DNA of 64,000 nt from an uncultured Candidatus Saccharibacteria bacterium (lineage in GTDB: Bacteria; Patescibacteriota; Minisyncoccia; Phycocordibacterales; UBA2163). The stretch lies in the NCBI GenBank assembly GCA_964626705.1, contig CAZVGL010000001.1, forward strand, positions 87,643 to 151,642, given 5' to 3'. Made by a program: the position numbers and the translations under genes. Below, piece after piece: positions 13,890-28,445 of this stretch. The notes under the pieces were generated by a model. The model did not search any database. It saw only the letters and a program-made list of their open reading frames with translations, and was not told the origin of the DNA. Within the stretch, counting starts at the first letter, position 1. Every line of letters begins with the position of its first letter.

Positions 13890-13948
13890 GGCTTTGTAGT
13901 ATATTGTATCTACTCGCTAAGCGGGTTTTTTTATAAAAATACAAAGAA

Positions 13949-14356
13949 ATGTCCACAATTAACCAATTGGTAAAAAAGAAGAGAAAAAAAGAAGCCACAA
14001 AGTCAAAGACTGTGGCGCTTTCACGTGGTTTTAATACATTGAAGAATAAGCCGGTTTTCTATAATTCACCATTTAAAAGAGGTGTATGTATAAAGGTAAT
14101 GACAAAGACTCCAAAGAAACCTAACTCTGCTGTGCGAAAGGTGGCAAGAGTGCGACTTACAAACGGTATGGAGGTTACTGCATATATTCCAGGAATGGGG
14201 CATAATTTGCAGGAGCACTCAGTAGTACTTCTGCGTGGTGGACGTGTAAAAGATATTGGACTACGATACACTGTGGTACGAGGAAAGCTTGACGCAGGTG
14301 GAGTAGAGAAAAGAAATAGAGGAAGAAGTAAGTACGGTACTAAAAAACCTAAATAA
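13949..14356 (+). CDS. rpsL: 30S ribosomal protein uS12
   Basis: [33 protein letters not shown]; length 135 aa. Confidence 0.96.
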
Positions 14357-14365
14357 ATTTAAATA

Positions 14366-14836
14366 ATGAGAAGAAAAATTAAAAGAAGAAAAGAGGTTGA
14401 TGGAGACTCAGTATATGGGTCTGTTAAACTTACTAAATTTATCAACTACGTAATGCAAGACGGTAAGAAAAACACTGCGCGTAAAGTAGTTTACGATACT
14501 CTTGAAGAGATAAAAACTAAAGAAAAGACAGATAAACCGGAGGTTCTTTTTGAAACAGCTCTTGATAATGTGGGGCCAAACATGGAAGTACGTTCACGAA
14601 GAGTAGGAGGTGCTAACTATCAGGTTCCTAGAGAAGTGCGTCCAGAAAGAAGGATGTTGCTTTCAATGCGATGGATAATAGGTGCAGCACAAGCAAAGAA
14701 AGGATCTCCTATGTATAAAAGGCTTGCAGAAGAGCTTATACTTGCTAGTAAAAACGAAGGTGAAGCATTCAAGAAGAAAGAAAACGTACACAAAATGGCA
14801 GAGTCTAACAAAGCCTTTGCACACTTTGCTTGGTAA
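14366..14836 (+). CDS. rpsG: 30S ribosomal protein uS7
   Basis: S7 family; length 156 aa; follows rpsL. Confidence 0.95.
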   Translation: MRRKIKRRKEVDGDSVYGSVKLTKFINYVMQDGKKNTARKVVYDTLEEIKTKEKTDKPEVLFETALDNVGPNMEVRSRRVGGANYQVPREVRPERRMLLSMRWIIGAAQAKKGSPMYKRLAEELILASKNEGEAFKKKENVHKMAESNKAFAHFAW

Positions 14837-14893
14837 TAAAATGTCCGGGGGCATTTTGTTCATGTTTTAATATTTTTAATTTAGATAACGTTT

Positions 14894-17038
14894 ATGGAAA
14901 GAGATTATCCACTAGAGAGAGTAAGAAACACAGGTATCATCGCACACATTGATGCCGGTAAAACTACGACAACAGAACGTGTGCTGTTTTATACTGGAGT
15001 ATCACACAAGATAGGAGAAGTGCACGAAGGAGAAGCTACTATGGACTGGATGGAGCAAGAGCAAGAGCGAGGTATTACTATTACTTCTGCTGCTACGACA
15101 GCTTTTTGGACTCCAACATATGCAGATAAAGGAGATGACAGTAATAAATATCGTTTTAATATTATCGACACACCAGGTCACGTGGACTTTACAGTGGAAG
15201 TAGAACGGTCTCTAAAGGTGCTTGATGGTGGAGTGGTGGTGTTTGATGGAGTAGCGGGAGTAGAACCACAGTCTGAAACTGTATGGCGACAGGCAGACAA
15301 ATACTCTGTACCAAGAATTTGTTTTATAAATAAAATAGATAGAACTGGTGCATCTTTCGAAAGGTCATACCAGACTATCTTAGACAGACTTACAAAAAAC
15401 GCAGTACGAATGCAGATACCTATAGGAGAAGAAGAAAATATGGAAGGTGTTGTGGACTTGCTTAAGATGAAAGCCTACTACTTTGAAGGTCAGATGGGTA
15501 TGGAAGTAAGAGAAGACGAAGTGCCAGAAAACTTAAAAGCTGAAGCAGAAAAGTTTAGAGGGGAACTTATAGAAAAAGCAGTTGAGAATGATGAAGTTCT
15601 TATGAATGACTATCTAGAAGGAAAAGAGATCCCAGTAGACAGCATAAAAAAAGCTATAAGAAAGGCAACAATTGCGAATCAGTTCGTGCCAGTGTTTACA
15701 GGTACTGCTTTGAAGAATAAAGGGGTACAGCTTGTGCTGGACGCTGTTATCGACTACTTGCCATCACCACTTGATATCCCGGCAGTTAAGGGTATTGATC
15801 CAAAGACAGAAGAAGAGATAGAAAGAAAAGCATCAGATGATGAGCCTTTTGCAGCACTTGCTTTCAAACTCCAGACGGATCCATTTGTAGGACAGCTTAC
15901 TTATTTCCGTGTGTATTCAGGTACGCTTGAAGCTGGTTCTTATGTTTACAATACAACAACAGGTAATAAAGAAAGAGTGGGACGAATCTTGCGTATGCAT
16001 GCCAACTCTCGTGAAGAAGTAAAGAAGGTTTATGCGGGAGAGATAGCGGCGGCTGTAGGACTTAAAGACACAAAGACCTCAGATACCTTGTCTGACGAGA
16101 CTAATCAAATAATATTAGATAGGATAGAGTTCCCAGAGCCCGTGGTAAACCTAAAGATAGAACCAAAGACAAAAGCCGACCAAGAGAAAATGGGTATCGC
16201 TCTTAAAAAACTTTCAGATGAAGATCCTACATTTAGAATATCTACAGATACCGAGACAATGGAAACTATTATTGCAGGTATGGGTGAGCTTCACTTGGAT
16301 ATTCTAGTAGACAGGATGAAAAGAGAGTTTAATGTAGAAGCAAATATCGGTAAGCCACAAGTAGCATATAAAGAAACTATTCAGAAAGAAGCAGAAGCAG
16401 AAGTAAAATACATAAAGCAGTCAGGTGGTCGCGGACAGTATGGTCATGTGAAGATTAAGATCAAGCCGCTTGAAGCTATAGAAGAAGATGCAAAGATACC
16501 TAAGAATGTTACAAGAGAAGAGGGGTATGAGTTTATAAACAGTATTAAAGGTGGAGTTATTCCTATGGAATACATACCTGCTGTTTCTAAGGGTGTTAAA
16601 GAAGGTATGCAAAGAGGTATTGTGGCGGGATATAAGCTTGTAGATATATCAGTAGACCTATTTGATGGTTCTTTCCATGATGTAGACTCATCTGAGATCG
16701 CTTTCAAGATCGCAGGGTCACAAGCGTTCCAGCAAGCAGCTGCAAAAGCAAAGCCTGTACTACTTGAACCTATTATGAAAGTAGAAGTGGTAACTCCAGA
16801 GCAGTTCATGGGAGACGTAACAGGTAACCTAAGTTCAAAACGTGGACAAGTAGAAAGTATGGAAGATAGGGGGATGCTAAAGGTGGTAAATGCTAAAGTA
16901 CCACTTTCAGAGATGTTTGGTTACACTACAACACTCCGCTCAATGACAGAAGGACGAGCATCGTCAACTATGGAGTTTGACCACTATGAAGTAGTGCCAC
17001 AAAATGTAGCAGAAGAGATCAAAGAAGCGAGAGGGTAA
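14894..17038 (+). CDS. fusA: Elongation factor G
   Basis: [21 protein letters not shown] and NKIDR motifs; length 714 aa. Confidence 0.97.
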
Positions 17039-17066
17039 TATAATATAAAAAATGAAAATGATAAAA

Positions 17067-17105
17067 GGGAGCTAGGCACAAATGTGCTTAGCTCCCTTGT
17101 TGGTT
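17067..17105. terminator. Bidirectional terminator between fusA and the permease gene
   Basis: GGGAGCTAGGCACAAATGTGCTTAGCTCCC forms a 13/14-bp stem. Confidence 0.7.
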
Positions 17106-17122
17106 TAAAAAACAAATTAAAA

Positions 17123-18577
17123 TTAATATTTTGACAAGAATAACAATAAAGCAATACTCCCAGCGCAACTTATTATAATGAAGGGTATATACGGTAAATG
17201 TGTTCTAAACCTATATACTCCTTTACTTATACTCATTACTGCTACTCCTGCCACTGATCCGATTGGTAATAAATTACATCCTATCCCAGTAGAGAGAGCA
17301 AATAGAAGCCATTGTAATAGATTCATGTCCAGTTTATCTATGTTTAGTACGGCATATACTACTGGCACACTCCCAAATAGGGCAGAAAATGCACCCATTG
17401 AGATATTTACCGCAGTGTGGCTATACGAATCGTACAAGTTACCAACTACAGTTTCGAAGAAACCTATATACTCTAGACCACCTATCATAGGAAGAACGCC
17501 ACAAATAAACAGAAGAGCATCAAACTCTATTCTCTTTATTCGTCTCGAGACTATATTATCTTCTTCATCATTTTCATCATCGTCGGCAACTTCTTCTTTG
17601 CATTTTATTAACTTCATCATGTTTGGGATACCGCAAATAAAATGAAGAGCGTTGAAGTCTACTTCTTTACTTATGCTTTCCTCTTTAGATTTCCCATTTC
17701 GTCTCTTGTCTTTCATAAAGAACGATTTGGCTAAATATGTTAGACCACATAACATACCCAGATACGGAGGAAGGTGGAAGAAATGATGAAAACATACCCC
17801 TGTTCCTATTGTAAGAAGGAAGCATATCATTGCTCTATAAGCACCAGGTTTCATTTTGCGCACATTTAGTGATTCTTGACTCCCATTTCCTGGGCAACCT
17901 TTTGGGACAAACCAAACGGTGAGCATTGTGAATATAATCCAACAGACAATAGCGGGTGCGGCTAATGATTTTACAAATTCTGCAGTAGGTATTTTGTCTG
18001 CAACCCACAACATTAGAAGGGTGATATCTCCAAAAGGACTCCAAGCACCACCAGCATTAGATGCCAGTATAATACCAACACTCGTGGGTATTAGAAACTT
18101 TATGTTTTTTCTCTCAACTGTAAAAGCGACATTCGCCATAAGCATAGCGCTTGTCAGATTGTCCAAAACAGGAGACATACAAAACGTTAAAAACCCTGTC
18201 ATAACAAATAGCCATCTGTAACTACGCTGTTTCTTTTTTAGTCGGTCACTTAGATTATCGAAAACACCTAAATAAGTTAAGGTGTTAACATATATCATGG
18301 CGACCATAAGGAAGAAGAATAGCTCTCCTATGCTGGCTGTCATCTTAATTCTAAACCACTCATTGATTTCAGAATGATTTATAAACCCGTGTACTCCTAT
18401 ACAAAGCCAGATAATACCGGACGCAGACATTACTGGTATAAACTTATTAAGACTTATCGTCTTTTCAAGTATAACCAGAATGAATGCTGTCATTGCTATT
18501 CCTAATATGAAATAGCTCAGCATATGGTTCTCTAGCCATATACTACTGTTGATTAAATCGTTGTTGTGTATTTCCAT
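17123..18577 (-). CDS. ArsB/NhaD/CitMHS-superfamily ion transporter with a large central cytoplasmic loop
   Basis: About 12 TM helices and an acidic central loop (..EEVADDDENDEEDN..). The RBS AAAGGGGG lies 5 nt before the ATG at 18577; the ORF track begins 2 codons earlier. Confidence 0.5.
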   Translation of the reverse strand: MEIHNNDLINSSIWLENHMLSYFILGIAMTAFILVILEKTISLNKFIPVMSASGIIWLCIGVHGFINHSEINEWFRIKMTASIGELFFFLMVAMIYVNTLTYLGVFDNLSDRLKKKQRSYRWLFVMTGFLTFCMSPVLDNLTSAMLMANVAFTVERKNIKFLIPTSVGIILASNAGGAWSPFGDITLLMLWVADKIPTAEFVKSLAAPAIVCWIIFTMLTVWFVPKGCPGNGSQESLNVRKMKPGAYRAMICFLLTIGTGVCFHHFFHLPPYLGMLCGLTYLAKSFFMKDKRRNGKSKEESISKEVDFNALHFICGIPNMMKLIKCKEEVADDDENDEEDNIVSRRIKRIEFDALLFICGVLPMIGGLEYIGFFETVVGNLYDSYSHTAVNISMGAFSALFGSVPVVYAVLNIDKLDMNLLQWLLFALSTGIGCNLLPIGSVAGVAVMSISKGVYRFRTHLPYIPFIIISCAGSIALLLFLSKY

Positions 18578-18725
18578 ACACACCCCCTTTCAAAGAAGTT
18601 AAAGTGTAATTTTTAATTTAATTTTCGATTCTCAAGGTGCTGCAAACCTGCATAGTTGTAACATATTCAGCCCCTTGGCGCAATTATTCTGAACATGTGA
18701 ACGTCGCACGTCCAACTACAGGTAC

Positions 18726-18757
18726 TATGATTAACCCAAGTGGTACAGTTAACTGTA
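18726..18757 (+). promoter_or_regulatory. Perfect 14-bp stem-loop in a divergent intergenic region
   Basis: CCCAAGTGGTACAG-TTAA-CTGTACCACTTGGG. There is no convergent gene for it to terminate. Confidence 0.4.
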
Positions 18758-18875
18758 CCACTTGGGACTTTCTGTTTAATTTGCTATTTTTTGAGATTTT
18801 CGTAGACTTGTGAGTAGTAAGTTGTTTTTATCAAGATCTAATTTTTTTAAGAAATTTAGAGAAGGAGGTTTTAAG

Positions 18876-19076
18876 ATGGATGACGCAGGAATGAGCAAAG
18901 GACTTATGTGGTTTCATGCAATCGTTCCAGCACTATTATTTTTTGGCTGTATAGGAGTTGTTGTATGGGCTTCTTTTGAAAGAGGTAAGAAAAAAGAATT
19001 AAAAAAAGAAAATAACAAATTAAAGAATGATGTAAACAGGCTTGAACGAGGGATATTAAGAAGTGATCACTGTTAA
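18876..19076 (+). CDS. Small single-TM protein with a C-terminal coiled coil (hypothetical)
   Basis: The RBS GAAGGAGG lies 7 nt upstream of the ATG at 18876. TM helix AIVPALLFFGCIGVVVWASF. The ORF-track start at 18810 is an upstream extension without an RBS. Confidence 0.5.
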   Translation: MDDAGMSKGLMWFHAIVPALLFFGCIGVVVWASFERGKKKELKKENNKLKNDVNRLERGILRSDHC

Positions 19077-19100
19077 TTTTTTTTGAAACGGAGATGACCA

Positions 19101-19373
19101 ATGATAGAACTACTTGATCATATGTATTCTGCAAATGATGAGCAAATGACGTATTTGGCAAAAAGGATAATAGAGGGATCTGAAGTAACAATTGGGTATA
19201 AAGAAGAAAAGGCTTGGCTTGATAAATATACTGAGAGACAGCTAGGGATACCTTTTGACTTTGCGGAGCTGTATTTGAAACTAGGCATAATCGAGTGTCA
19301 TTCTGGCAATAATGATACCTGGGAACGGCATTATCTATTTCCTTATGAAAGGGCTTCAAGAATCACTTTTTAG
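19101..19373 (+). CDS. Hypothetical protein (90 aa)
   Basis: The RBS GGAG lies 7 nt upstream. It has no recognisable family and is adjacent to the 18876 gene. Confidence 0.4.
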   Translation: MIELLDHMYSANDEQMTYLAKRIIEGSEVTIGYKEEKAWLDKYTERQLGIPFDFAELYLKLGIIECHSGNNDTWERHYLFPYERASRITF

Positions 19374-19574
19374 TTGCGCTTTATCAAAAAGTAGGGCAGA
19401 GGACTCACTAGTACGAGTTTTCTGCCTATTTTTATATTATATCTTGCGCTTTTATTTATGTTCTGGTACTATATATCACATATCGCCTTGTGCGCTTTTT
19501 GTTATGCGCGCGAGCTTTGTCGCTAAAAAGGGGGGATATTGGTAAATTTATTAATTATTAATACATAAATTATT

Positions 19575-20768
19575 ATGGCAGAAGCTTTTGACAGGTCAAA
19601 ACCTCACGTAAACGTAGGTACAATTGGCCACGTTGACCACGGAAAAACAACTTTGACTGCAGCTATCTTGCACGTTCTACAACTTGCAGGAATGACAGTT
19701 AAGATGAAAAAGGTTGACGAAATCGACGGTGCTCCAGAAGAAAAAGCACGAGGTATTACTATCTCACTTTCTCACAACGAGTACGCAACAGACGCTCGGC
19801 ATTATGCGCACATTGATGCACCTGGTCACGCCGACTATATTAAAAACATGATCACAGGAGCCGCACAGATGGACGGCGCTATTCTTGTGGTTGCAGCATC
19901 TGACGGTGTAATGCCTCAGACAAGAGAGCACATCTTGCTTGCAAAGCAGGTTGGTGTGCCAAAGATTATCGTATTTCTTAACAAAGTTGATCAGGTTGAC
20001 GACAATGACCTAGTAGACCTTGTAGAAGAAGAAGTTCGTGAACTTCTTACACAATACGAGTTTGATGGAGAAAACGCTCCAGTTATTCGCGGTTCAGGAC
20101 TTAAAGCTCTTGACGCAACATCAATGGATGACGAATGGGCAAAGAAAGTTATGGAACTTGCAACAGCTCTTGACGAATACATCCCACTTCCAGTAAGAGA
20201 GATGGATAAACCATTCCTAATGCCTATTGAGGACATCTTCTCAATCGAAGGACGAGGTGCGGTTGTAACAGGAAGGATCGAAAGAGGTGTAGTGAAGGTA
20301 GGTGAAGAAATCGAGATAGTTGGTATTAAAGAAACATCAAAAACTACAGTTACAGGTATCGAGATGTTTAATAAGCAGCTTGAAGAAGGTCAGGCTGGAG
20401 ACAATGCTGGTATCTTGGTTCGTGGTCTTAAAAAAGAAGAGATTCACAGAGGACAAGTGCTTGCAAAACCAGGTTCTGTAACACCTCATACTGAGTTTGA
20501 AGCAGAAGCTTACGTTCTTAAAAAAGAAGAAGGAGGACGACACACACCATTCTTTACAGGTTATAAGCCACAGTTCTACATCAGAACAACTGATGTAACA
20601 GGAGAGGCAACTTTACCTGAAGGAACAGAGATGGTAATGCCTGGAGACACAACAACATTCACAGTGAAGCTGGTATCACCAGTTGCCCTTGAAGAAAAGC
20701 AAAAGTTTGCTATTCGAGAAGGAGGTAAGACTGTCGGTGCCGGAGTTGTGACAAAGATCATTGCGTAA
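19575..20768 (+). CDS. tuf: Elongation factor Tu
   Basis: [21 protein letters not shown] and NKVD motifs; length 397 aa. Confidence 0.97.
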
Positions 20769-20776
20769 ACTTAAAT

Positions 20777-21148
20777 ATGACAACAGCGACAACTAAAACT
20801 AAAAAAGCGCCTGCTAAGAAAAAAGCGTCAAAAAAAGACGAAGCGCCTAAGATCCGAATCCGTGTTCGTGCATACGAGCATAAGATTTTGGACAGTTCTA
20901 TAAAACAAATTATAGACACAGTGCTTCGTTTTGATGCAAAGATAGTAGGACCTATACCGCTTCCAACAGAGATCAAGAAGTATACTGTAAACCGTGCATC
21001 ATTTGTTTACAAAGATGCTCGTGAGCAGTTTGAGATGAGAGTTCATAAAAGGGTTATAGATATCCTTAGCCCATCTCCAAAGATCATAGAAGCGCTCACA
21101 AACATGAGCTTACCGTCTGGAGTCAATATCGACATAAAGATGGTTTAA
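20777..21148 (+). CDS. rpsJ: 30S ribosomal protein uS10 with a ~25-aa Lys/Ala-rich N-terminal extension
   Basis: IRIRVRAYEHKILDSS...VNRASFVYKDAREQFEMRVHKR is the S10 core. It is preceded by TTATTKTKKAPAKKKASKKDEAPK. Confidence 0.93.
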   Translation: MTTATTKTKKAPAKKKASKKDEAPKIRIRVRAYEHKILDSSIKQIIDTVLRFDAKIVGPIPLPTEIKKYTVNRASFVYKDAREQFEMRVHKRVIDILSPSPKIIEALTNMSLPSGVNIDIKMV

Positions 21149-21160
21149 ACTAAGATACAA

Positions 21161-21193
21161 AAACCCCGCAGGCTCAGCCTGCGGGGTTTTTGA
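21161..21193 (+). terminator. Strong rho-independent terminator directly after rpsJ
   Basis: CCCCGCAGGC-TCAG-CCTGCGGGG followed by TTTTTG. Confidence 0.85.
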
Positions 21194-21287
21194 TTTGCTT
21201 TACAAAATGATCTGACTATGGCAAACTATCATCTGGTAGTAAAACGTTGTACTCTATTTTAATCAATCTTTGTAAAGAGGAGGCTCA

Positions 21288-21464
21288 ATGTCAGTATCAA
21301 AAAAGACAAAGAAGAAACCTATTGAGAAAGAAGAATTTTTCATCGGTGTGTGTAATGAATGCGGAAACGAAACCGTAAAAGTTTCAAGCCTTGTTATAAA
21401 ACATTGGACGGATAAATGTAAGATCGGCAGTTGTGATGGGAGATACACTTACATCGAGGTTTGA
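21288..21464 (+). CDS. Unannotated 58-aa Cys4 zinc-ribbon-like protein (the ORF track missed it because it is under 60 aa)
   Basis: A perfect RBS AAGAGGAGG lies 6 nt before the ATG. Translation: MSVSKKTKKKPIEKEEFFIGVCNECGNETVKVSSLVIKHWTDKCKIGSCDGRYTYIEV (CxxC...CxxxxC). The minus-strand ORF at 21263-21448 is its antisense shadow. Confidence 0.6.
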   Translation: MSVSKKTKKKPIEKEEFFIGVCNECGNETVKVSSLVIKHWTDKCKIGSCDGRYTYIEV

Positions 21465-21561
21465 TATCTAATCAGTAAAAAAAGTTTATAATCAGTTACG
21501 CTCGCATACCCTGCATCATAGTGGGTTTGCGAGCATTTTTTTGTATAAAATCACCAAAATC

Positions 21562-21762
21562 TTGCACCCAAAGGGCACGCCGGTTTGTGGCTGATCACTC
21601 CGTTCTCAGACAAACCGTTGCACCCAAAGGGTACTTGCAATTTGCTAGGCCAATCGCTACGCTTTTGGGCAAATTGGTTGCACGACTCGGATTAGACAGC
21701 CTCCATGCACGCCGGTTTGTGGCTGATCACTCCGTTCTCAGACAAACCGTTGCATTTTATTG
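21562..21762 (+). repeat. Second tandem array of the TTGCAC structured-repeat family (units of 56, 60 and 72 bp plus a terminal TTGCAT) immediately upstream of rplC
   Basis: Unit 1 (21562-21617) differs from unit 2 of the rpsL array at one position. Unit 3 carries a 25-nt insert after the head. The array ends in TTGCAT, which forms a -35. Confidence 0.85.
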
Positions 21763-21778
21763 AGTATTATAGTACTAT
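21750..21778 (+). promoter_or_regulatory. Predicted promoter TTGCAT-N17-TACTAT for the rplC sub-operon
   Basis: The hexamers and spacing fit. The -35 is the terminal repeat head. Confidence 0.5.
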
Positions 21779-21793
21779 ACAATCACTTATTTA

Positions 21794-21815
21794 GAAGCTC
21801 GTAGCTTCTTTTTTG
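21794..21815 (+). promoter_or_regulatory. Leader hairpin GAAGCTCGTAGCTTC plus U-run, 8 nt before the rplC ATG
   Basis: The same motif recurs before rpsS (24576-24598). It looks like an attenuator or r-protein operator. Confidence 0.45.
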
Positions 21816-21822
21816 TTGAAAT

Positions 21823-22419
21823 ATGGCTAAGTTTATCATAGGCACAAAACAAAATATGACTCAGATCTTCGATACGGAAGGGCGAGTTCACCCAGCAACT
21901 GTTATAAATGCAGAGCCTACTTCAGTGACTCAGATAAAGAACAAAGAAAAAGACGGCTATGAAGCTGTGCAGGTGGGTTATGGAGAAAGAAAAGAAAAGA
22001 ACATAAACAATGCTCAGAAAACAAAAGGAAACTTTGAAGGTTTTAAAGAATTCATCGGTGCTGGGGAACTTAAAGTTGGCGACAAGATCGACATCTCAAG
22101 TTTTGCAGAAGGAGAAGAAATAGAGATCTCTTCTATTTCAAAAGGTAAAGGTTTTCAAGGTGTAGTAAAGCGTCATGGTTTTCACGGAGGACGACGTTCA
22201 CATGGTCAGAAGCATTCGGAAAGAGAGCCAGGTTCTATTGGTGCAACAGGTCCACAAAGAGTATTTAAAGGAAAAAAGATGGGTGGCCGTATGGGAAGTG
22301 ATAGAGTGACTTTGAAAAAAGTTGAAATACTTCAGATCGACAAAGACAATAATCAGCTTGTAGTAAGAGGTGCGGTACCTGGAAGAAGAGGGACTGTAAT
22401 AGAAATAAGCGCGCAATAA
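21823..22419 (+). CDS. rplC: 50S ribosomal protein uL3
   Basis: L3 family; length 198 aa. Confidence 0.95.
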   Translation: MAKFIIGTKQNMTQIFDTEGRVHPATVINAEPTSVTQIKNKEKDGYEAVQVGYGERKEKNINNAQKTKGNFEGFKEFIGAGELKVGDKIDISSFAEGEEIEISSISKGKGFQGVVKRHGFHGGRRSHGQKHSEREPGSIGATGPQRVFKGKKMGGRMGSDRVTLKKVEILQIDKDNNQLVVRGAVPGRRGTVIEISAQ

Positions 22420-22431
22420 TTTTAATATTAT

Positions 22432-23154
22432 ATGGAAACTAAAGTATACAATTTAGAAGGAAAAGAAACTGGAAAGGTATCATTACCCGAAAGTGTTTTT
22501 GGTTTACCATGGAATGATGACCTAGTGCATCAGGTGGTTGTATCTCAGCAGAGTAATTTGCGAACTCCTATAGCTCATACTAAAGATAGAAGTGAAGTAC
22601 GAGGTGGTGGTAGAAAACCATGGCGTCAGAAAGGTACTGGGCAATCTCGACATGGGTCAAGAAGATCTCCTATATGGCGTGGAGGAGGTATTACTTTTGG
22701 TCCTCGTAACGATAAGGATTATGGTAAGAAGATCAACAAGAAGATGAAAGCAAAAGCGCTTCTCACAATACTTTCACGAAAGTTCAAAGACGGTGAAATA
22801 ATATTCGTAGATTCACTTTCATTTGCAGAACCAAAGACGGCTAAAGCAAAAGAAGTTGTCACTAATCTTTCAAAGATAGCCGGGTTTGATACACTTGCTA
22901 CAAAGCGAAAAAACGCAGCATTGTTTGCACTTGGTACTAAAGACAAAAATACAGAAAAGAGTTTTCAGAACTTTGGAAGTATTTCAGTTGATGAAGCTCG
23001 TAACCTAGACCCACTTGATATTCTTACATACAAATATCTAATAGTTTCAGAGCCTAAAAATATAGTTAATTTCTTAGAAAGTAAATTACCAAAAAAAGAA
23101 GTGGCTAAAAAGGAAGTTAAAGCTGAAGTAAAGAAAGAGGTAAATAAAAAATAA
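22432..23154 (+). CDS. rplD: 50S ribosomal protein uL4 with a Lys-rich C-terminal tail
   Basis: L4 family; the tail reads ..KKEVAKKEVKAEVKKEVNKK. Confidence 0.94.
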   Translation: METKVYNLEGKETGKVSLPESVFGLPWNDDLVHQVVVSQQSNLRTPIAHTKDRSEVRGGGRKPWRQKGTGQSRHGSRRSPIWRGGGITFGPRNDKDYGKKINKKMKAKALLTILSRKFKDGEIIFVDSLSFAEPKTAKAKEVVTNLSKIAGFDTLATKRKNAALFALGTKDKNTEKSFQNFGSISVDEARNLDPLDILTYKYLIVSEPKNIVNFLESKLPKKEVAKKEVKAEVKKEVNKK

Positions 23155-23155
23155 T

Positions 23156-23566
23156 ATGGCATTGTTTGGATCAAAAAAGAAAAAAGAGGTTGCAGATAAA
23201 CCTAAAAAGGAGGTTAAAGCAGTGAAAAAAGCTGTAGCTAAAGCTCCTGCAGTTGCTGTGAAGCCACAAGCTAAAGGTGCTGATGGTATGTTTGCTCATA
23301 TTTTAGTACAGCCACGTATTACTGAGAAAGCTACTGAAAAGGCAGAGACTGGCGTATATGTATTTGAAGTTGCAACAAATGCTACAAAGAAAGAAATAGG
23401 AAGTGCTGTAAAGCATTATTACAATGTGACACCTATTAAAGTAAATATTGTAAAGATCCCTTCAAAGAAGATAACTTCAAGAACTACTCGTAAAACAGGT
23501 ACAAGACCTGGAGGTAAGAAAGCATATGTCTTTCTTAAAGAGGGGGATAAAATAGAGATTGTATAA
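23156..23566 (+). CDS. rplW: 50S ribosomal protein uL23 with a ~40-aa Lys/Ala-rich N-terminal extension
   Basis: The core AHILVQPRITEKAT..YVFEV is L23. Confidence 0.93.
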   Translation: MALFGSKKKKEVADKPKKEVKAVKKAVAKAPAVAVKPQAKGADGMFAHILVQPRITEKATEKAETGVYVFEVATNATKKEIGSAVKHYYNVTPIKVNIVKIPSKKITSRTTRKTGTRPGGKKAYVFLKEGDKIEIV

Positions 23567-23575
23567 TAAATTTTT

Positions 23576-24418
23576 ATGAAGAAATATAAACCAACAACAC
23601 CAGGAAGACGAGGAATGACAGGTATTTCATATCGAGATATTTTAACTACGTCAAAACCATATAAGCCACTGACTCGTGGTGTTAATCGTTCTGTGGGGCG
23701 AAACAGTGACGGTAGGATAACAACTCGACACAAAGGCGGAGGGCATAAAAGAGTGTGGAGAGAAATAAGTTTTAAATACGACAAACGAGAAGTTGTAGGG
23801 ACTTTGACAACTATTGAATATGATCCAAACAGATCAGGATTCATATCACTTGTATCATACAAAGATGGAGAAAAGAGATATGTACTTCTTCCACAGACAA
23901 TGAAGGTTGGCGACACTATAGTAGCTTCAGCTGAAGCTAAAGTGAAAGTAGGTAATTCATTACCACTTAATAAGATCCCTGTAGGTACTTTTGTATACAA
24001 TGTAGAGATCAAGCCAGACAGTGGTGCAAAGATCGCACGTTCAGCTGGTAACTATGCAGAGGTTATTGCAAACGACGGTGGCTTCGTACACTTGAAGATG
24101 CCATCATCTGAGATACGAAAAGTAAGTGAAAAAGCTTGGGCATCTGTTGGTGAAGTAAGTAATGACGAACATAGGCTTGTGAACATCGGTAAGGCAGGGC
24201 GAGCACGATGGATGGGGAGACGGCCGACAGTGCGTGGTTCTGCTATGAACCCAGTAGACCACCCACATGGTGGTGGAGAAGGGCATGCAGGCCGTGGACG
24301 ACGACGAGCTATCTCTAAATGGGGTAAGCCGACAGGTAAAGGACAGAAGTCACGAAAACCTAAGAAATATTCAAATCAACTTATCGTTAAAAGAAGAAAA
24401 GTTGGAAAGAAAAGATAA
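23576..24418 (+). CDS. rplB: 50S ribosomal protein uL2
   Basis: L2 family; length 280 aa; HPHGGGEG motif. Confidence 0.96.
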   Translation: MKKYKPTTPGRRGMTGISYRDILTTSKPYKPLTRGVNRSVGRNSDGRITTRHKGGGHKRVWREISFKYDKREVVGTLTTIEYDPNRSGFISLVSYKDGEKRYVLLPQTMKVGDTIVASAEAKVKVGNSLPLNKIPVGTFVYNVEIKPDSGAKIARSAGNYAEVIANDGGFVHLKMPSSEIRKVSEKAWASVGEVSNDEHRLVNIGKAGRARWMGRRPTVRGSAMNPVDHPHGGGEGHAGRGRRRAISKWGKPTGKGQKSRKPKKYSNQLIVKRRKVGKKR

Positions 24419-24427
24419 TATTAAAAA

Positions 24428-24464
24428 CAAAAACACCGAGGTTTAACCTCGGTGTTTTTGTTTG
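24428..24464 (+). terminator. Rho-independent terminator after rplB
   Basis: AAACACCGAGG-TTTAA-CCTCGGTGTTT followed by TTG. Confidence 0.85.
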
Positions 24465-24541
24465 TTACGTAGCATGTTACGTAACAAAAAGCTGTTAAAT
24501 AGCTTATCTTATGTTGAAATGAGGGATTTAGCTGTTTTTTG

Positions 24542-24570
24542 TTGACATTGCGCTGTAATTTGGTAATATT
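24542..24570 (+). promoter_or_regulatory. Predicted promoter TTGACA-N16-TAATAT for the rpsS sub-operon
   Basis: It has a consensus -35 and a near-consensus -10. Confidence 0.55.
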
Positions 24571-24575
24571 CTGTA

Positions 24576-24598
24576 AAGCTCGTAGGAGCTTGTTTTTA
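24576..24598 (+). promoter_or_regulatory. Leader hairpin AAGCTCGTAGGAGCTT plus U-run before rpsS
   Basis: The sequence and position match the rplC leader hairpin. Confidence 0.45.
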
Positions 24599-24607
24599 TA
24601 GTTAAAT

Positions 24608-24952
24608 ATGTCACGATCACTCAAAAAAGGTCCATATGTAGATGAAAAGCTTCTCAAGAAGGTTGAGGGCAAGAAACCCGACGAAGTCAAAGGGCCTATT
24701 AAGACGTGGGCACGACGAAGTCAGATATCACCTGAGATGGTGGGCTTTACATTTGGTGTTCATAACGGAAAGGAGCATATAGAAGTGTTTGTTTCTGAAG
24801 AAATGGTGGGACATAGACTTGGAGAGTTTTCAGCTTCAAAGAAGTTCTTGCGACATGGAGGTAAAATACAAAAAGAACTCGATCAGAAAAAGAAAGAATC
24901 AGAAATAACAGCAGCTAAAGCAGCTAAAGAAGCAGGAGACTCTAAGAAATAA
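24608..24952 (+). CDS. rpsS: 30S ribosomal protein uS19 with a Lys/Ala-rich C-terminal extension
   Basis: The N-terminus [20 protein letters not shown] is S19. Confidence 0.94.
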
Positions 24953-24957
24953 TTATC

Positions 24958-25392
24958 ATGAAAGCACTTCTTAAAAACTATAGACAAGCACCACGTAAAG
25001 TTCGCCTTATTGCAAACCTTGTTCGTGGTAAGAAAGTTGATAGAGCTCTTATACTTCTATCTGCTACAGATAAAAAGGCAACACTACCTTTTAAGAAGTT
25101 AGTAGAGTCTGCAATAGCAAATGCAAAAAGTTCAGGTGCTAAATCTGAAGATTTGATAGTAAAAGAAATACAGGTAAACGAAGGTATAGTTTTCAAAAGA
25201 TACAAGCCACGAGCGCGCGGTAGGGCTTCAGCAATACGAAAAAAGACAAGTCACATCTCTGTTATTTTAGAAGAAGGAAAGAAGAAGGTTGAAAAAGCAA
25301 AAGTTGAGACTAAAAAGACAGAGGTTAAAAAGGTTGCAAAGAAGGCCGAATCTGTAAAGAAATCAGCAGTTAAGAAAACAGTTAAAAAATAA
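24958..25392 (+). CDS. rplV: 50S ribosomal protein uL22 with a Lys-rich C-terminal tail
   Basis: L22 family; length 144 aa. Confidence 0.93.
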   Translation: MKALLKNYRQAPRKVRLIANLVRGKKVDRALILLSATDKKATLPFKKLVESAIANAKSSGAKSEDLIVKEIQVNEGIVFKRYKPRARGRASAIRKKTSHISVILEEGKKKVEKAKVETKKTEVKKVAKKAESVKKSAVKKTVKK

Positions 25393-25393
25393 T

Positions 25394-26062
25394 ATGACAC
25401 ATACAGTACATCCATATGCACATAGACTAGGTATTTTAAGAGATTGGAAATCTCGATGGTTTTCTGCTGATCCAAAACGATATCGTGAATTTATAAAATG
25501 CGACACTACTATAAGACAATTTTTACAAAAGAGACTGCGAGGATTTTATATAAGTTCTATTGAGATAGAGCGAGGAGAAAAGAAATTAAGAATTATTATA
25601 AAGACATCACGTCCTGGTATGATCATCGGACGAAGTGGGGACGGTGCTACAAAACTTAAAAACGACATTGAAAAAGTTATCGCAAAGCTTAGCCTTACAG
25701 ACAAACAGGATATAAAACTTGATATAGAAGAAGTTAAGAACCCTGAATCCAATGCTGCTATAGTAGGGCAGATGGTAGCTGAAGCTCTTGAGAAGAGGAT
25801 GACATTTAGACGTGTGCTAAAACAAACTGTAGAGAAGGTTATGGCAAATCGTGATGTGGTAGGAGTGAGGATCGTCCTTGGAGGGCGCTTGGGAGGAGCT
25901 GAGATGGCACGAAAGGAACAAATCAAGAAAGGGCGTATCCCACTTCAGACTTTTAGAGCGGATATTGATTTTACGCGAGAAAAAGCATATCTTCCATATG
26001 GAGTGATAGGTATCAAGGTATGGATATATAAAGGAGATGTTTTTGCTGATGGTAAGAAATAA
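25394..26062 (+). CDS. rpsC: 30S ribosomal protein uS3
   Basis: Has a KH domain; length 222 aa. Confidence 0.95.
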   Translation: MTHTVHPYAHRLGILRDWKSRWFSADPKRYREFIKCDTTIRQFLQKRLRGFYISSIEIERGEKKLRIIIKTSRPGMIIGRSGDGATKLKNDIEKVIAKLSLTDKQDIKLDIEEVKNPESNAAIVGQMVAEALEKRMTFRRVLKQTVEKVMANRDVVGVRIVLGGRLGGAEMARKEQIKKGRIPLQTFRADIDFTREKAYLPYGVIGIKVWIYKGDVFADGKK

Positions 26063-26072
26063 TAATTAAAAT

Positions 26073-26492
26073 ATGTTATTCCCAAAGAAAGTAAAATATA
26101 GGAAGTGGCAAACAAGCCGCAAGAATCCTAAAAAGATCAGTCCAGCAACACGTGGCAACACTCTTGCTTTTGGCTCTTTTGGCCTGAAGTCTATGAAGGC
26201 TGTTCGCATAAGGTCAAACCAGATCGAAGCTGCACGAAGAGTGATCTCAAGAGCTATGGGAAAAAACGGAAGAATATGGACACGTGTATTCCCAGACCGA
26301 CCTTATACTGCAAAAGCAGCTGAGGTAGGTATGGGTAAAGGAAAGGGTGACCTGCAAGGGTATGAGTTCCCAGTACTTCCAGGGCATATACTTTTTGAGA
26401 TAGACGGTGTAGATGAAGCTATTGCACGTGAAGCGCTTAGGAAGGCAACTGCAAAGCTACCGCTTACAGCTAAAGTAATAAGTAGAGTTTAA
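26073..26492 (+). CDS. rplP: 50S ribosomal protein uL16
   Basis: L16 family; length 139 aa. Confidence 0.95.
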   Translation: MLFPKKVKYRKWQTSRKNPKKISPATRGNTLAFGSFGLKSMKAVRIRSNQIEAARRVISRAMGKNGRIWTRVFPDRPYTAKAAEVGMGKGKGDLQGYEFPVLPGHILFEIDGVDEAIAREALRKATAKLPLTAKVISRV

Positions 26493-26500
26493 ATATTAAT

Positions 26501-26692
26501 ATGGCAAAGAAAATAGATTTAAAAAATAAGAGTGATAAAGATTTACAGAAAGATCTCGCAGACAAACGAGAGAATGTTCGTACATTTCGATTTGGTGTTG
26601 CAGGAAGTAAGGTGCGTAATGTAAAAGAAGCGAAGAATATAAAGAGAGGTATTGCGCAGATCCTAACTGAAATAAGTTCAAGAAATAAATAA
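26501..26692 (+). CDS. rpmC: 50S ribosomal protein uL29
   Basis: L29 family; length 63 aa. Confidence 0.92.
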   Translation: MAKKIDLKNKSDKDLQKDLADKRENVRTFRFGVAGSKVRNVKEAKNIKRGIAQILTEISSRNK

Positions 26693-26693
26693 T

Positions 26694-26954
26694 ATGGAAA
26701 ATAAGACAGAACAAAAAAATATTGTAAAAAAACAAAAAACACTTTCTGGTGTGGTTGTTTCAGACAAGATGACAGACACAGCTGTCGTTGCTGTAGAGAG
26801 GTATGTAAAACACCCTAAGTATGGTAAGTTCATAAAGCGAGTAAAAAGGTATAAAGCTCACGATAAGGACAATCAGCATAAAGTGGGTGAAAAGGTAAGT
26901 ATAGAACAAACACGACCTATCTCTAAAGACAAGACTTTTAAGATAATAAATTAA
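26694..26954 (+). CDS. rpsQ: 30S ribosomal protein uS17
   Basis: S17 family; length 86 aa. Confidence 0.93.
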   Translation: MENKTEQKNIVKKQKTLSGVVVSDKMTDTAVVAVERYVKHPKYGKFIKRVKRYKAHDKDNQHKVGEKVSIEQTRPISKDKTFKIIN

Positions 26955-26955
26955 T

Positions 26956-27327
26956 ATGATACAGCCACAAACATTAGTAAAAGTGACAGACAACTCCGGA
27001 GCGAAGATCGGGCGAGTTTTCAAAGTGCTCGGAGGTTCAAAAAAACGATATGCACGAATAGGTGATATCGTGGTTTTGTCTGTACAGACTGCAGAGCCTA
27101 GAAAGATGGTTAAAAAGAAGGAAGTACTAAGGGCTGTTGTGGTAAGACAAAAACAGCCTTTCCGAAGAAAAGATGGTTCATATATTTCATTTGATGAGAA
27201 CTCTGTTGTGATAATAGATAAAGAAAAGAAGGAACCAAAAGCAGGACGAGTCTTCGGACCTATCCCTAGAGAGATAGGTGAGCTTGGATATCAGAAGATA
27301 GTGTCACTTGCACCTGAAGTAGTATAA
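26956..27327 (+). CDS. rplN: 50S ribosomal protein uL14
   Basis: MIQPQTLVKVTDNSGAK..; length 123 aa. Confidence 0.96.
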   Translation: MIQPQTLVKVTDNSGAKIGRVFKVLGGSKKRYARIGDIVVLSVQTAEPRKMVKKKEVLRAVVVRQKQPFRRKDGSYISFDENSVVIIDKEKKEPKAGRVFGPIPREIGELGYQKIVSLAPEVV

Positions 27328-27332
27328 ATATT

Positions 27333-27548
27333 ATGAAAATAAAAAAAGACGACAAAGTAAAAATAATCGCTGGGAAAGACAAAGGTAAAACTGGAAAGGT
27401 TTTACGTGCTATTCCTGACAATGATCAGATAATAGTGGAGGGTGTTAATATAAAAAAACGACATCAGAAGCCTACAAAAAGTAATCAGAAAGGGCAGATA
27501 GTAGACAAGACAACACCAATACATGTTTCAAATGCTAAGAAGATATAA
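27333..27548 (+). CDS. rplX: 50S ribosomal protein uL24 (short, KOW domain)
   Basis: KVKIIAGKDKGKTGKV is the KOW motif; length 71 aa. Confidence 0.9.
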   Translation: MKIKKDDKVKIIAGKDKGKTGKVLRAIPDNDQIIVEGVNIKKRHQKPTKSNQKGQIVDKTTPIHVSNAKKI

Positions 27549-28152: not shown

Positions 28153-28238
28153 GATTTTGTGGTATTCTAATCAACAGTAAATTAGCCCAATTCATTATTG
28201 TAGTATTTTTAGTCTTTGTATAATATGGAGGTGTGAAG

Positions 28239-28445
28239 ATGCAGACTACAACGAAAAAGGTTTTAGTTCATTTTGTCGAAGGAGAAATGGTAAATTGTTA
28301 CGATACATCGTGTGATGGCTGTAATGGACCGGATTGTTTTTTGAATGAGGGCCTGATTGCTGATAGCGACCTTACACGTAAAGATCCTGCATTTTGTTAT
28401 GCGGGCAATTCCGTGAATTTTTCAGAACTACTAAAGCCAGCTTAG
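28239..28445 (+). CDS. Small Cys-rich protein or peptide (68 aa) of unknown function
   Basis: The RBS GGAGG lies 7 nt before the ATG at 28239. Six Cys residues are present: NCYDTSCDGCNGPDCF...FCYAG. Confidence 0.45.
   Translation: MQTTTKKVLVHFVEGEMVNCYDTSCDGCNGPDCFLNEGLIADSDLTRKDPAFCYAGNSVNFSELLKPA

What the first reader, a model, noticed from the sequence alone, without database searches (positions are those of the whole stretch)
21288..21464. Unannotated 58-aa Cys4 zinc-ribbon-like ORF with a perfect Shine-Dalgarno between rpsJ and rplC
AAGAGGAGG lies 6 nt before the ATG, which is by far the strongest RBS near the ribosomal genes. The product MSVSKKTKKKPIEKEEFFIGVCNECGNETVKVSSLVIKHWTDKCKIGSCDGRYTYIEV has a CxxC pair and a CxxxxC pair typical of a zinc ribbon and a basic N-terminus. 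It does not resemble L36, L33, L28 or S14. Its position inside the ribosomal cluster suggests a ribosome-associated or regulatory small protein. It lies below the 60-aa ORF-track cutoff, and the annotated minus-strand ORF at 21263-21448 is its antisense shadow.
Basis: seen in the sequence. Interest (0 to 1): 0.55.

Follow-up and report, generated by a model that had tools for sequence, protein, structure and literature searches.

The report
Small accessory four-cysteine protein gene
The 58-codon reading frame between two ribosomal protein genes is very probably a real gene for a tiny metal-binding protein, but it looks like a strain-variable accessory gene that sits in a swap-prone gap of the ribosomal gene cluster rather than a part of the ribosome.

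Summary
The ORF at 21288-21464 (+) is there as described. It has a GGAGG Shine-Dalgarno, 4 nt (not 6) before the ATG. It lies in a 674-bp rpsJ-rplC spacer of a Parcubacteria (CPR) genome.

It is very likely a real gene.
- It has its own promoter-like element and is flanked by two strong intrinsic terminators.
- Its frame has the best codon score of the six.
- One true homologue exists among 1.84 billion representative proteins (59 aa, 45% identical). It lies downstream of rpsJ in a relative whose S10 is 92% identical. The Shine-Dalgarno spacing, promoter, terminator, four Cys and an HW pair are all conserved.

Public gene callers already list it as "hypothetical protein".

The ribosome-associated reading is not supported.
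- The neighbouring ribosomal genes have no Shine-Dalgarno.
- The gene is transcriptionally insulated from them.
- It evolves fast: dN 0.55, against S10 at 92% and L3 at 85% identity.
- The basic N-terminus is acidic in the homologue.
- The gene is absent from four of the six closest relatives, and not seen in a fifth whose contig ends early. It is also absent from about 160 other Parcubacteria loci.
- In those relatives the same spacer holds unrelated cargo: a toxin-antitoxin pair, small membrane peptides, PEP-CTERM-like proteins, or nothing.

It matches no known family. The zinc-ribbon fold is plausible but weakly supported.

Verdict: an orphan small Cys4 protein in a hypervariable slot. Modest interest.

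The parts
21158..21192 (+). Intrinsic terminator closing tuf-rpsJ. It is a 16-bp perfect stem that reads as a terminator on both strands, and it insulates the small gene from upstream transcription.
   Evidence: RNA fold -31.3 kcal/mol, z = -7.5. A homologous hairpin follows rpsJ in L087, L172 and L177.
21199..21227 (+). Promoter-like element: TTTACA, 17 nt, CAAACT, with TG two bases before the second hexamer.
   Evidence: single match in the window. It is 78% identical over 55 nt to the region upstream of the homologue in L087, while the surrounding spacer does not align. The same TT(G/T)ACAAA...TAnnnT layout precedes the other accessory genes of this slot in L087, L168, L172 and L174. Function as a promoter is inferred.
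21275..21283 (+). Shine-Dalgarno AAGAGGAGG, 4 nt before the ATG.
   Evidence: The L087 homologue has GGGAGGAGG with the same 4-nt spacing.
21288..21464 (+). 58-aa ORF (stop codon included) for a Cys4 mini-protein. The Cys are C22, C25, C44 and C49. Other conserved residues: E13, E15, F17, G20, E28, T29, K31, V32, S33, L35, V36, H39, W40, K45, G51, Y53, Y55.
21500..21542 (+). Intrinsic terminator of the small gene: stem GCUCGCA.ACCC/GGGUUUGCGAGC followed by a U-run.
   Evidence: RNA fold -22.1 kcal/mol, z = -4.1. The stem is conserved base for base in L087, with a different loop.
21263..21448 (-). 61-aa antisense ORF. It is a shadow of the plus-strand gene and not a gene.
   Evidence: Codon score -0.06 against +0.15 for the plus frame. 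The antisense frames in L087 are interrupted by stops.
21562..21754 (+). Neighbouring feature, not part of the gene. It is an array of about three TTGCA-bounded hairpin repeat units inserted just upstream of the rplC promoter.
21750..21815 (+). Neighbouring feature. It comprises the putative rplC promoter (TTGCAT, 17 nt, TACTAT) and a leader hairpin with a T-run that ends 7 nt before the rplC ATG. This suggests that rplC starts a new transcription unit.
   Evidence: The sequence is nearly identical in L177, and TTGCAT-N16/17-TAnnnT recurs before rplC and rpsL in relatives. Promoter function is inferred.

Best explanation
The ORF is a real, independently expressed gene for a 58-residue cytoplasmic mini-protein.

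Expression. Transcription starts at its own sigma-70-type promoter (TTTACA-N17-CAAACT). That promoter lies just after the terminator that ends tuf-rpsJ. Transcription stops at a dedicated intrinsic terminator about 40 nt after the stop codon. The mRNA is therefore a roughly 300-nt monocistronic unit that is not part of the ribosomal operon. Translation uses a strong Shine-Dalgarno, unlike the Shine-Dalgarno-less ribosomal genes around it.

Protein. It most likely folds around one metal ion, probably Zn, held by C22, C25, C44 and C49. The fold would be a zinc-ribbon-like beta mini-domain. The conserved patch (ET.KVS.LV, HW, CK, G.Y.Y) would be the core and binding face. The N-terminal 12 residues are a variable tail.

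Biology. It is an accessory, strain-variable gene in a hypervariable slot between the rpsJ terminator and the rplC promoter. In close relatives that slot carries unrelated cargo or nothing. My best guess at molecular action is a small adaptor or regulator that binds a nucleic acid or a partner protein. It may serve a conflict or niche function, as the toxin-antitoxin and membrane-peptide cargo of the same slot does in relatives. It is not a ribosome component.

Shown: the ORF, the Shine-Dalgarno, the terminators, the conserved promoter-like motif, a syntenic homologue with conserved Cys, patchy distribution, and fast divergence.
Inferred: transcription start, metal binding, the fold, and the binding function.
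For: Gene reality:
- phmmer against 1.84 billion representatives found exactly one credible relative, P0003 (59 aa, E = 4e-5 library-wide). Pairwise BLASTP gives 45% identity, E = 3e-13.
- P0003 is encoded on L087, between rpsJ (S10 92% identical) and rplC.
- Alignment gaps are whole codons. All four Cys plus HW are invariant.
- 9 of 20 identical degenerate residues use different codons, against 28% in S10 and 35% in L3. The conserved residues are therefore held at the protein level.
- Differences per codon position are 26/20/32.
- The codon score of the frame is +0.15. It is the best of six frames and above all 3000 off-frame windows.
- GGAGG with an ORF of this length has P = 0.007 by chance.

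Self-contained unit:
- Terminators flank it on both sides.
- The promoter-like motif and the terminator stem are conserved in L087, while the rest of the spacer is unalignable.

Accessory status, from the rpsJ-rplC spacer content in relatives (S10 identity in brackets):
- L177 (98%): four unrelated genes in 4.3 kb.
- L169-172 (96%): one 65-aa Cys-rich membrane peptide.
- L174 (93%): an MNT/HepT toxin-antitoxin pair plus a 59-aa membrane peptide.
- L087 (92%): a 163-aa gene, the homologue, and a 173-aa gene.
- L175 (91%) and L176 (89%): empty.
- No homologue was found in 160 other Parcubacteria S10 loci. 24 of 131 of them have spacers longer than 600 bp holding diverse ORFs.

Fold:
- AlphaFold2 gives mean pLDDT 77, with strands at 17-22 and 52-57.
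- The top Foldseek hits are all zinc-ribbon modules: eS27, bL33, MCM, and FmdB-type.
Against: - There is only one homologue, so the conservation evidence rests on a single pair, and dS is saturated.
- Overall dN is high (0.55), so much of the protein is weakly constrained.
- The Cys spacing is atypical for zinc ribbons: C-x4-C in the second pair, and C-x2-C against C-x4-C in the first.
- No expression, metal or partner data exist.
- Nothing in the neighbourhood points to a specific target, so the binding function is a guess.
- The codon score is in the lowest 7% of real-gene windows.
Confidence: 0.6

Rival explanations
1. One reading: a lineage-specific ribosome-associated zinc-ribbon protein, or an autoregulator of the S10 cluster. 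It would be placed there because it works with the ribosome, in the way that eS27, eL43 or bL33 bind rRNA with a zinc ribbon and a basic tail.
For: - It lies between rpsJ and rplC in two species.
- The N-terminus of the window protein is lysine-rich.
- NCBIfam gives a sub-threshold match to eL43 (E = 0.06, 13.7 bits).
- The best Foldseek PDB hits are archaeal eS27 chains and bacterial bL33 (E = 0.26 to 1).
Against: - All of these matches are far below significance. The eL43 cut-off is 95.8 bits, and zinc ribbons match each other generically.
- The basic tail is not conserved: the homologue is acidic there and has net charge about -3.
- The gene is absent from four of the six closest relatives and from 160 further Parcubacteria loci.
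- It has its own promoter and terminators and a Shine-Dalgarno, unlike every ribosomal gene nearby.
- It is 45% identical between species where S10 is 92% and L3 is 85% identical.
- The same spacer holds toxin-antitoxin genes and membrane peptides in relatives, so position carries no functional information.
Confidence: 0.07
2. A component of an inter-genomic conflict system, such as a small antitoxin-like, anti-phage or anti-defence protein. It would be carried as a mobile cassette, with its surface under diversifying selection.
For: - The slot is hypervariable among near relatives, and in L174 it holds an MNT/HepT toxin-antitoxin pair.
- dN is high while only the ligand and core positions stay fixed.
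- The flanking promoter and terminator are better conserved than the coding sequence.
- Small hairpin repeats of variable copy number lie next to it.
Against: - There are no hits in PADLOC, PHROGs, phage genomes or IMG/VR.
- The window has no partner gene; the gene stands alone.
- There is no recombinase or recognisable mobile-element end around it.
- With two sequences, diversifying selection cannot be told apart from relaxed constraint.
Confidence: 0.2
3. Not a functional gene. It would be a chance or decaying ORF in a long AT-rich spacer, with the homologue reflecting shared ancestry of non-coding DNA.
For: - ORFs of this length are common by chance in such a spacer (P = 0.38).
- The family has only two members.
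- The codon score is low for a real gene.
- dN is high.
Against: - DNA across the ORF is too diverged for blastn, yet the protein alignment is significant and gapped only in whole codons.
- Length, start, Shine-Dalgarno spacing and stop are conserved.
- All four Cys and HW are conserved despite synonymous turnover.
- The antisense and other frames are closed in L087.
- Shine-Dalgarno plus ORF has P = 0.007 by chance.
Confidence: 0.07
4. A secreted or modified Cys-rich peptide (bacteriocin- or RiPP-like precursor). The variable N-terminus would be a leader and the Cys would form disulfide or thioether bridges instead of binding a metal.
For: - A variable N-terminal 12 residues are followed by a conserved Cys-, Ser- and Thr-containing core.
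- The homologue has a weak Pfam hit to the conotoxin precursor family (E = 0.045).
- Relatives carry small Cys-containing peptides in the same slot.
Against: - There is no signal peptide or double-glycine leader.
- There is no modifying enzyme, transporter or immunity gene nearby; the neighbours are rpsJ and rplC.
- The Pfam hit is below threshold (14.4 bits against 21.6).
- A two-plus-two Cys layout with flanking beta strands is the usual pattern of metal knuckles.
Confidence: 0.04

Closest known systems
One-domain zinc-finger micro-proteins of prokaryotes (for example the Haloferax volcanii C(P)XCG proteins; PMC6562870, known to me from its title and abstract only)
   Same: Both are under 70 aa. 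Both consist of a single mini-domain with two Cys pairs. Both are stand-alone genes, often lineage-restricted, with functions that cannot be deduced from sequence.
   Different: No sequence relationship was detected. The pairs here are C-x2/4-C and C-x4-C, not CPXCG. The organism is a CPR bacterium, not a haloarchaeon.
Zinc-ribbon ribosomal proteins (archaeal/eukaryotic eS27 and eL43; bacterial bL33, bL36, uS14)
   Same: Similar size, four metal-ligand positions, and a gene located in a ribosomal cluster. These are the best, though non-significant, fold and profile matches.
   Different: It fails every family threshold. It is not conserved across related genomes. Its charge is not conserved. 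Its transcription and translation-initiation signals differ from those of the ribosomal genes. It evolves about ten times faster in dN.
FmdB/CxxC_CxxC_SSSS-type and other small phage or bacterial zinc-ribbon regulators
   Same: Foldseek against viral models ranks such small zinc ribbons near the top (TM 0.5-0.6). They are also small stand-alone proteins.
   Different: The E-values are not significant (0.02 to 0.5). There is no Pfam or PHROG hit, and the Cys spacing differs.
Variable accessory-gene hotspots flanked by conserved core genes (genomic islets or integration hotspots; named from general knowledge)
   Same: The flanks (rpsJ terminator, rplC promoter) are conserved while the cargo differs between close relatives. 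The cargo includes a toxin-antitoxin pair.
   Different: The scale is very small: single small genes, each with its own promoter and terminator. No integrase, tRNA or attachment site was recognised. It lies inside the ribosomal protein cluster.

Membership tests
Zinc-ribbon fold group | Four metal ligands arranged as two pairs separated by roughly 15-20 residues | tested here: met
   C22/C25 and C44/C49 are 18 residues apart, and all four are invariant in the homologue.
Zinc-ribbon fold group | Each pair forms a canonical CxxC (often CPxCG) knuckle | tested here: not met
   The second pair is C-x4-C in both proteins. The first pair is C-x2-C in the window protein and C-x4-C in the homologue.
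Zinc-ribbon fold group | Knuckles carried on beta hairpins that form a small antiparallel sheet, with structural similarity to known ribbons | tested here: inconclusive
Zinc-ribbon fold group | Binds one Zn ion | not testable with these tools
   This needs metal analysis of purified protein.
Ribosomal proteins (bL36, bL33, bL28, uS14, eS27, eL43) | Sequence matches the family profile above its curated threshold | tested here: not met
   Pfam gave no hit at E up to 10. NCBIfam eL43 scored 13.7 bits against a cut-off of 95.8. A PDB sequence-profile search gave no hit at E up to 10.
Ribosomal proteins (bL36, bL33, bL28, uS14, eS27, eL43) | Present throughout related genomes | tested here: not met
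   It was found in only 2 lineages. It is absent from L177, L169-172, L175 and L176. It was not seen in L174, whose contig ends before rplC. It is absent from 160 other Parcubacteria S10 loci.
Ribosomal proteins (bL36, bL33, bL28, uS14, eS27, eL43) | Expressed as part of ribosomal operons, with the same initiation signals | tested here: not met
   It has its own promoter-like motif and is flanked by terminators. It has a strong Shine-Dalgarno, whereas 17 translation-apparatus genes nearby (ribosomal protein genes plus fusA and tuf) have none.
Ribosomal proteins (bL36, bL33, bL28, uS14, eS27, eL43) | Physically part of the ribosome | not testable with these tools
   This needs ribosome purification with mass spectrometry, or cryo-EM.
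Known anti-phage defence or phage protein families | Profile match in PADLOC or PHROGs, or a homologue in phage genomes | tested here: not met
   PADLOC gave none and PHROGs gave none. tblastn against 50,697 phage records gave none, as did IMG/VR.
Integron-type gene cassette | A promoterless ORF followed by an attC site, next to an integrase | tested here: not met
   The ORF has its own conserved promoter-like motif and a terminator. The adjacent hairpin repeats are TTGCA-bounded and lack the attC core. They also occur before rpsL with no cassette logic. The window was not searched for an integrase.

The most novel reading that the evidence does not exclude
The rpsJ-rplC gap of this Parcubacteria clade is a dedicated exchange slot. 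Short, self-expressed gene cassettes (promoter, Shine-Dalgarno, small ORF, terminator) are swapped there between strains. The TTGCA-bounded 56-nt hairpin elements next to the slot would serve as the recombination or insertion substrates. The Cys4 protein would be one circulating cargo, evolving under diversifying selection. A less likely alternative, also not excluded, is that the protein is a clade-specific ribosome accessory factor.
Probability: 0.12. Interest if true: 0.6.

Novelty: new member of a known kind. Interest (0 to 1): 0.27.

Why it matters
If the gene is expressed, it adds one more orphan family to the many small Cys-rich proteins of candidate-phyla-radiation bacteria. That has limited consequence on its own.

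The context is more useful than the protein. It shows that in these reduced genomes the ribosomal protein cluster is not a single insulated operon. It is cut by terminators and promoters into units, and the gaps between them tolerate fast turnover of small accessory genes. Those accessory genes use Shine-Dalgarno initiation, while the core translation genes do not.

This warns against inferring function from position inside ribosomal clusters in CPR genomes. It also offers a compact natural system for studying Shine-Dalgarno-dependent against Shine-Dalgarno-independent initiation in one organism.

Tried and rejected
- Family scans (Pfam, NCBIfam, PHROGs, PADLOC) of the protein, its homologue and the neighbouring cargo of L087 gave nothing above threshold.
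- A PDB sequence-profile search gave no hit.
- The word-indexed search of 5.8 billion proteins, run with the single sequence and with the two-sequence profile, returned only the two known members.
- Pattern scans with the two-sequence profile found no relative in JGI metagenome contigs or IMG/VR.
- tblastn and HMM scans found no further member in 80 GTDB and 80 metagenome S10 loci, or in ten loci of the closest S10 relatives.
- There is no paralogue in the window.
- Polymorphism-based dN/dS was impossible. Six other assemblies of the same strain have no difference in the ORF or the spacer.
- Pairwise dN/dS with the homologue failed because dS is saturated.
- Rfam (E up to 1) and tRNA scans of the spacer found only sub-threshold hits, centred on or adjoining the terminator hairpins.
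- I considered that the shared TTTACAAA motif marks a cassette-specific regulatory site. I rejected this because the same layout precedes other accessory genes, for example the four genes in L168. It is more simply this clade's promoter consensus.
- I considered an integron-like attC reading of the hairpin repeats. I rejected it as a membership claim (see the membership test).

Full report
**1. What is in the sequence**

The ORF at 21288-21464 (+) encodes MSVSKKTKKKPIEKEEFFIGVCNECGNETVKVSSLVIKHWTDKCKIGSCDGRYTYIEV. It lies in a 674-bp spacer between rpsJ (20777-21148) and rplC (21823-22419). AAGAGGAGG occupies 21275-21283, so the gap to the ATG is 4 nt, not 6.

The spacer has a clear layout:
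- a perfect 16-bp hairpin with a T-run at 21158-21192, reading as a terminator on both strands (-31.3 kcal/mol, z = -7.5);
- a promoter-like TTTACA-N17-CAAACT with an upstream TG at 21199-21227;
- the Shine-Dalgarno and the ORF;
- a second terminator hairpin at 21500-21542 (z = -4.1);
- an array of TTGCA-bounded hairpin repeats at 21562-21754;
- a TTGCAT-N17-TACTAT promoter-like site, followed by a short hairpin with a T-run that ends 7 nt before the rplC ATG.

No tRNA and no Rfam family reaches threshold in the spacer.

S10 relatives place the organism in Parcubacteria/Paceibacteria, in the CPR.

**2. Is it more than chance?**

An ATG ORF of at least 58 aa in a spacer of this size and composition arises in 38% of Markov simulations. 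Combined with GGAGG 3-10 nt upstream, it arises in 0.7%.

The codon-usage log-odds of the frame is +0.15. It is the best of the six frames and above all 3000 off-frame windows from real genes, but it sits in the lowest 7% of in-frame windows. The antisense ORF at 21263-21448 scores -0.06.

None of fusA, tuf, rpsJ, rplC, rplD, rplW, rplB, rpsS, rplV, rpsC, rplP, rpmC, rpsQ, rplN, rplX, rpsL or rpsG has a Shine-Dalgarno. They have A/T-rich leaders. A minority of other genes in the window do carry GGAGG.

**3. Public records**

The identical 58-aa protein is already called as a gene, "hypothetical protein", in NCBI, JGI, ENA and Logan assemblies on at least 24 contigs. Six of these contigs are 99.7-99.9% identical to the window. 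They have no difference in the ORF or the spacer, so they give no polymorphism information.

**4. Homologues**

The word-indexed search of 5.8 billion proteins found only the protein itself. An exhaustive phmmer run against 1.84 billion representatives found one credible relative, P0003 (59 aa, E = 4e-5). The other hits were low-complexity repeat proteins.

Pairwise, P0003 is 45% identical over 47 residues (E = 3e-13). The invariant residues are E13, E15, F17, G20, C22, C25, E28, T29, K31, V32, S33, L35, V36, H39, W40, C44, K45, C49, G51, Y53 and Y55.

P0003 is encoded on the 2.8-kb contig L087.
- The contig begins with an rpsJ whose product is 92% identical to the window's, and it ends in rplC (85% identical).
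- Its rpsJ-rplC spacer is 1.9 kb and holds three separate small units: a 163-aa ORF, the homologue, and a 173-aa membrane protein. Each has its own promoter-like site, and terminator hairpins were read after the first two.
- The homologue has GGGAGGAGG 4 nt before its ATG.
- Its upstream region is 78% identical over 55 nt, including the TTTACA-N17-CAAACT motif.
- Its terminator has the same stem sequence with a different loop.
- The coding DNA itself is too diverged for blastn.

**5. Selection**

- Alignment gaps are whole codons.
- Differences per codon position are 26/20/32 of 56.
- 9 of 20 identical degenerate residues use different codons, against 28% in S10 and 35% in L3. The conserved residues are therefore maintained at the protein level despite synonymous turnover.
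- All antisense frames in L087 contain stops.
- dN is 0.55 and dS is saturated. S10 and L3 have dN of 0.04-0.09 and omega of about 0.06-0.14. The protein therefore evolves roughly ten times faster than its neighbours outside about 22 fixed positions.

**6. Distribution and the nature of the site**

No homologue was detected in 80 GTDB loci or 80 metagenome loci centred on S10 relatives at 52-87% identity. Among 131 of these loci that contain both S10 and L3, the median gap is 118 bp. However, 24 have gaps longer than 600 bp and 13 have gaps longer than 1 kb, filled with unrelated ORFs.

I then fetched the closest S10 relatives and read their spacers:

| Locus | S10 identity | rpsJ-rplC spacer content |
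|---|---|---|
| L177/L168 | 98% | Four unrelated genes, three with weak PEP-CTERM/exosortase-domain hits, in 4.3 kb |
| L169-172 | 96% | One 65-aa Cys-rich membrane peptide in 525 bp |
| L174 | 93% | A nucleotidyltransferase/HepT toxin-antitoxin pair plus a 59-aa membrane peptide (contig ends before rplC) |
| L087 | 92% | The homologue plus two other genes |
| L175 | 91% | Nothing (244 bp) |
| L176 | 89% | Nothing (149 bp) |

The flanks are conserved throughout: the rpsJ terminator on one side, and the rplC promoter and leader on the other. The slot is therefore hypervariable and the Cys4 gene is patchily distributed.

The TT(G/T)ACAAA...TAnnnT layout that precedes the gene also precedes the other cargo genes. 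I read it as this clade's ordinary promoter form, not as a special signal.

**7. Fold and families**

- Pfam, PHROGs and PADLOC gave no hit.
- NCBIfam gave eL43 at E = 0.06, 13.7 bits against a cut-off of 95.8.
- A PDB sequence-profile search gave none.
- Phage genomes and IMG/VR gave none.
- AlphaFold2 with the two-sequence alignment gave a best model of mean pLDDT 77, with strands at 17-22 and 52-57 and a short helix at 34-37. The five models ranged from 77 to 43.
- The same run with the homologue first gave pLDDT 48, with strands at equivalent positions.
- The best Foldseek hits were all small zinc-ribbon modules: archaeal eS27, bL33, the MCM N-terminal ribbon, and FmdB-type phage proteins. 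Their E-values were 0.02 to 1.

A Cys4 metal-binding mini-domain of zinc-ribbon type is therefore plausible but not demonstrated. The C-x4-C spacing is atypical. The window protein has a lysine-rich N-terminus and net charge about +3. The homologue has an acidic N-terminus and net charge about -3.

**8. Interpretation**

The evidence supports a real, self-contained, monocistronic gene for a small Cys4 protein. It is one of several alternative cargos of a swap-prone gap in the ribosomal gene cluster.

The evidence speaks against a ribosomal or operon-regulatory role:
- the gene is transcriptionally insulated;
- its translation-initiation signal differs from that of the ribosomal genes;
- its charge is not conserved;
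- it diverges fast;
- its presence is patchy;
- the cargo at the same site in relatives is unrelated.

The molecular function cannot be read from the data. My committed guess is a small metal-stabilised adaptor or regulator that binds a nucleic acid or a partner protein through the conserved face, possibly in a conflict or niche role (confidence in that last step about 0.3).

Rival readings and my estimates:
- conflict-system component: 0.2;
- ribosome-associated protein: 0.07;
- non-functional ORF: 0.07;
- secreted Cys-rich peptide: 0.04.

**9. Novelty and score**

This is a new two-member orphan family of a familiar kind, the small one-domain Cys4 proteins (compare PMC6562870). It is ordinary for CPR genomes, which are rich in such orphans. 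Interest is modest at 0.27.

The context is more noteworthy than the protein:
- Shine-Dalgarno-less core genes sit next to Shine-Dalgarno-led accessory genes;
- the rpsJ-rplC slot is hypervariable;
- the TTGCA-bounded hairpin repeats vary in copy number at the rplC promoter: 0, 1 or 3 between relatives.

Noticed in passing
window 13648-13882 and 21562-21754 (partial unit at 13001-13030); L177 6400-6490: A family of units of about 56 nt, each bounded by TTGCA, forms a conserved two-part hairpin. On 6 units, RNAalifold predicts 19 pairs, 9 of them with compensatory changes. The arrays sit just upstream of the rpsL and rplC promoters, and the last TTGCA(T) doubles as the -35 box. The same site has 0 units in L087, L172 and L174 (AAAATCTTGCATTTTTTG), 1 unit in L177 and about 3 in the window. 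This suggests a small mobile or expanding element that duplicates or targets TTGCA. There is no Rfam match.
   Followed up: partly
window 13949-27400 (start sites listed): All 17 ribosomal-protein and elongation-factor genes examined lack a Shine-Dalgarno and have A/T-rich leaders. Several orphan small ORFs (21288, 18876, 28239) and a minority of larger genes carry GGAGG. Two translation-initiation regimes appear to coexist in one genome.
   Followed up: partly
window 28233-28445 and 28569-30884: A second Shine-Dalgarno-led, Cys-rich small ORF (68-70 aa, containing ...CYDTSCDGCNGPDC...) follows directly after rplE. After it comes a 771-aa ORF that looks like a glycosyltransferase by eye (no family scan was run). 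The ribosomal cluster is therefore interrupted here too.
   Followed up: no
window 20504-20741 (3' end of tuf): The only differences between the window and six other assemblies of the same strain, over up to 12 kb, are 8-14 substitutions. All are synonymous and all cluster in 240 bp at the end of tuf. This pattern suggests recombination or gene conversion with another tuf allele, or a strain-mixture assembly effect. There is no second tuf copy in the window.
   Followed up: partly
window 21793-21815 and 13905-13930; L087 2262-2282: A short GC hairpin with a T-run lies in the leaders of rplC and rpsL (its T-run ends 7 nt before the rplC ATG). In L087 the rplC leader carries the hairpin sequence that the window uses before rpsL (TACTCGCTAAGCGGGTTTTTT). 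These may be attenuator-type leaders of the ribosomal operons.
   Followed up: no
window 18810-19373: Two orphan ORFs with no Pfam match lie between a CitMHS transporter gene and tuf. One is 88 aa, or 66 aa from an internal ATG with AGAAGGAGG. The other is 90 aa. This looks like another small-gene insertion point within the str/S10 region.
   Followed up: no
window 12065-12922 and 13185-13598: Two ORFs (285 aa and 137 aa) share an identical 23-residue N-terminus that looks like a signal peptide, and identical upstream sequence over the 30 nt inspected. This points to a recent partial duplication upstream of rpsL.
   Followed up: no
L174 1740-1830 and L168 2243-2330: In two relatives a conserved stretch of about 80 nt, containing two AAGGAG-like boxes, lies between the rpsJ stop and its terminator. 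It is absent from the window.
   Followed up: no
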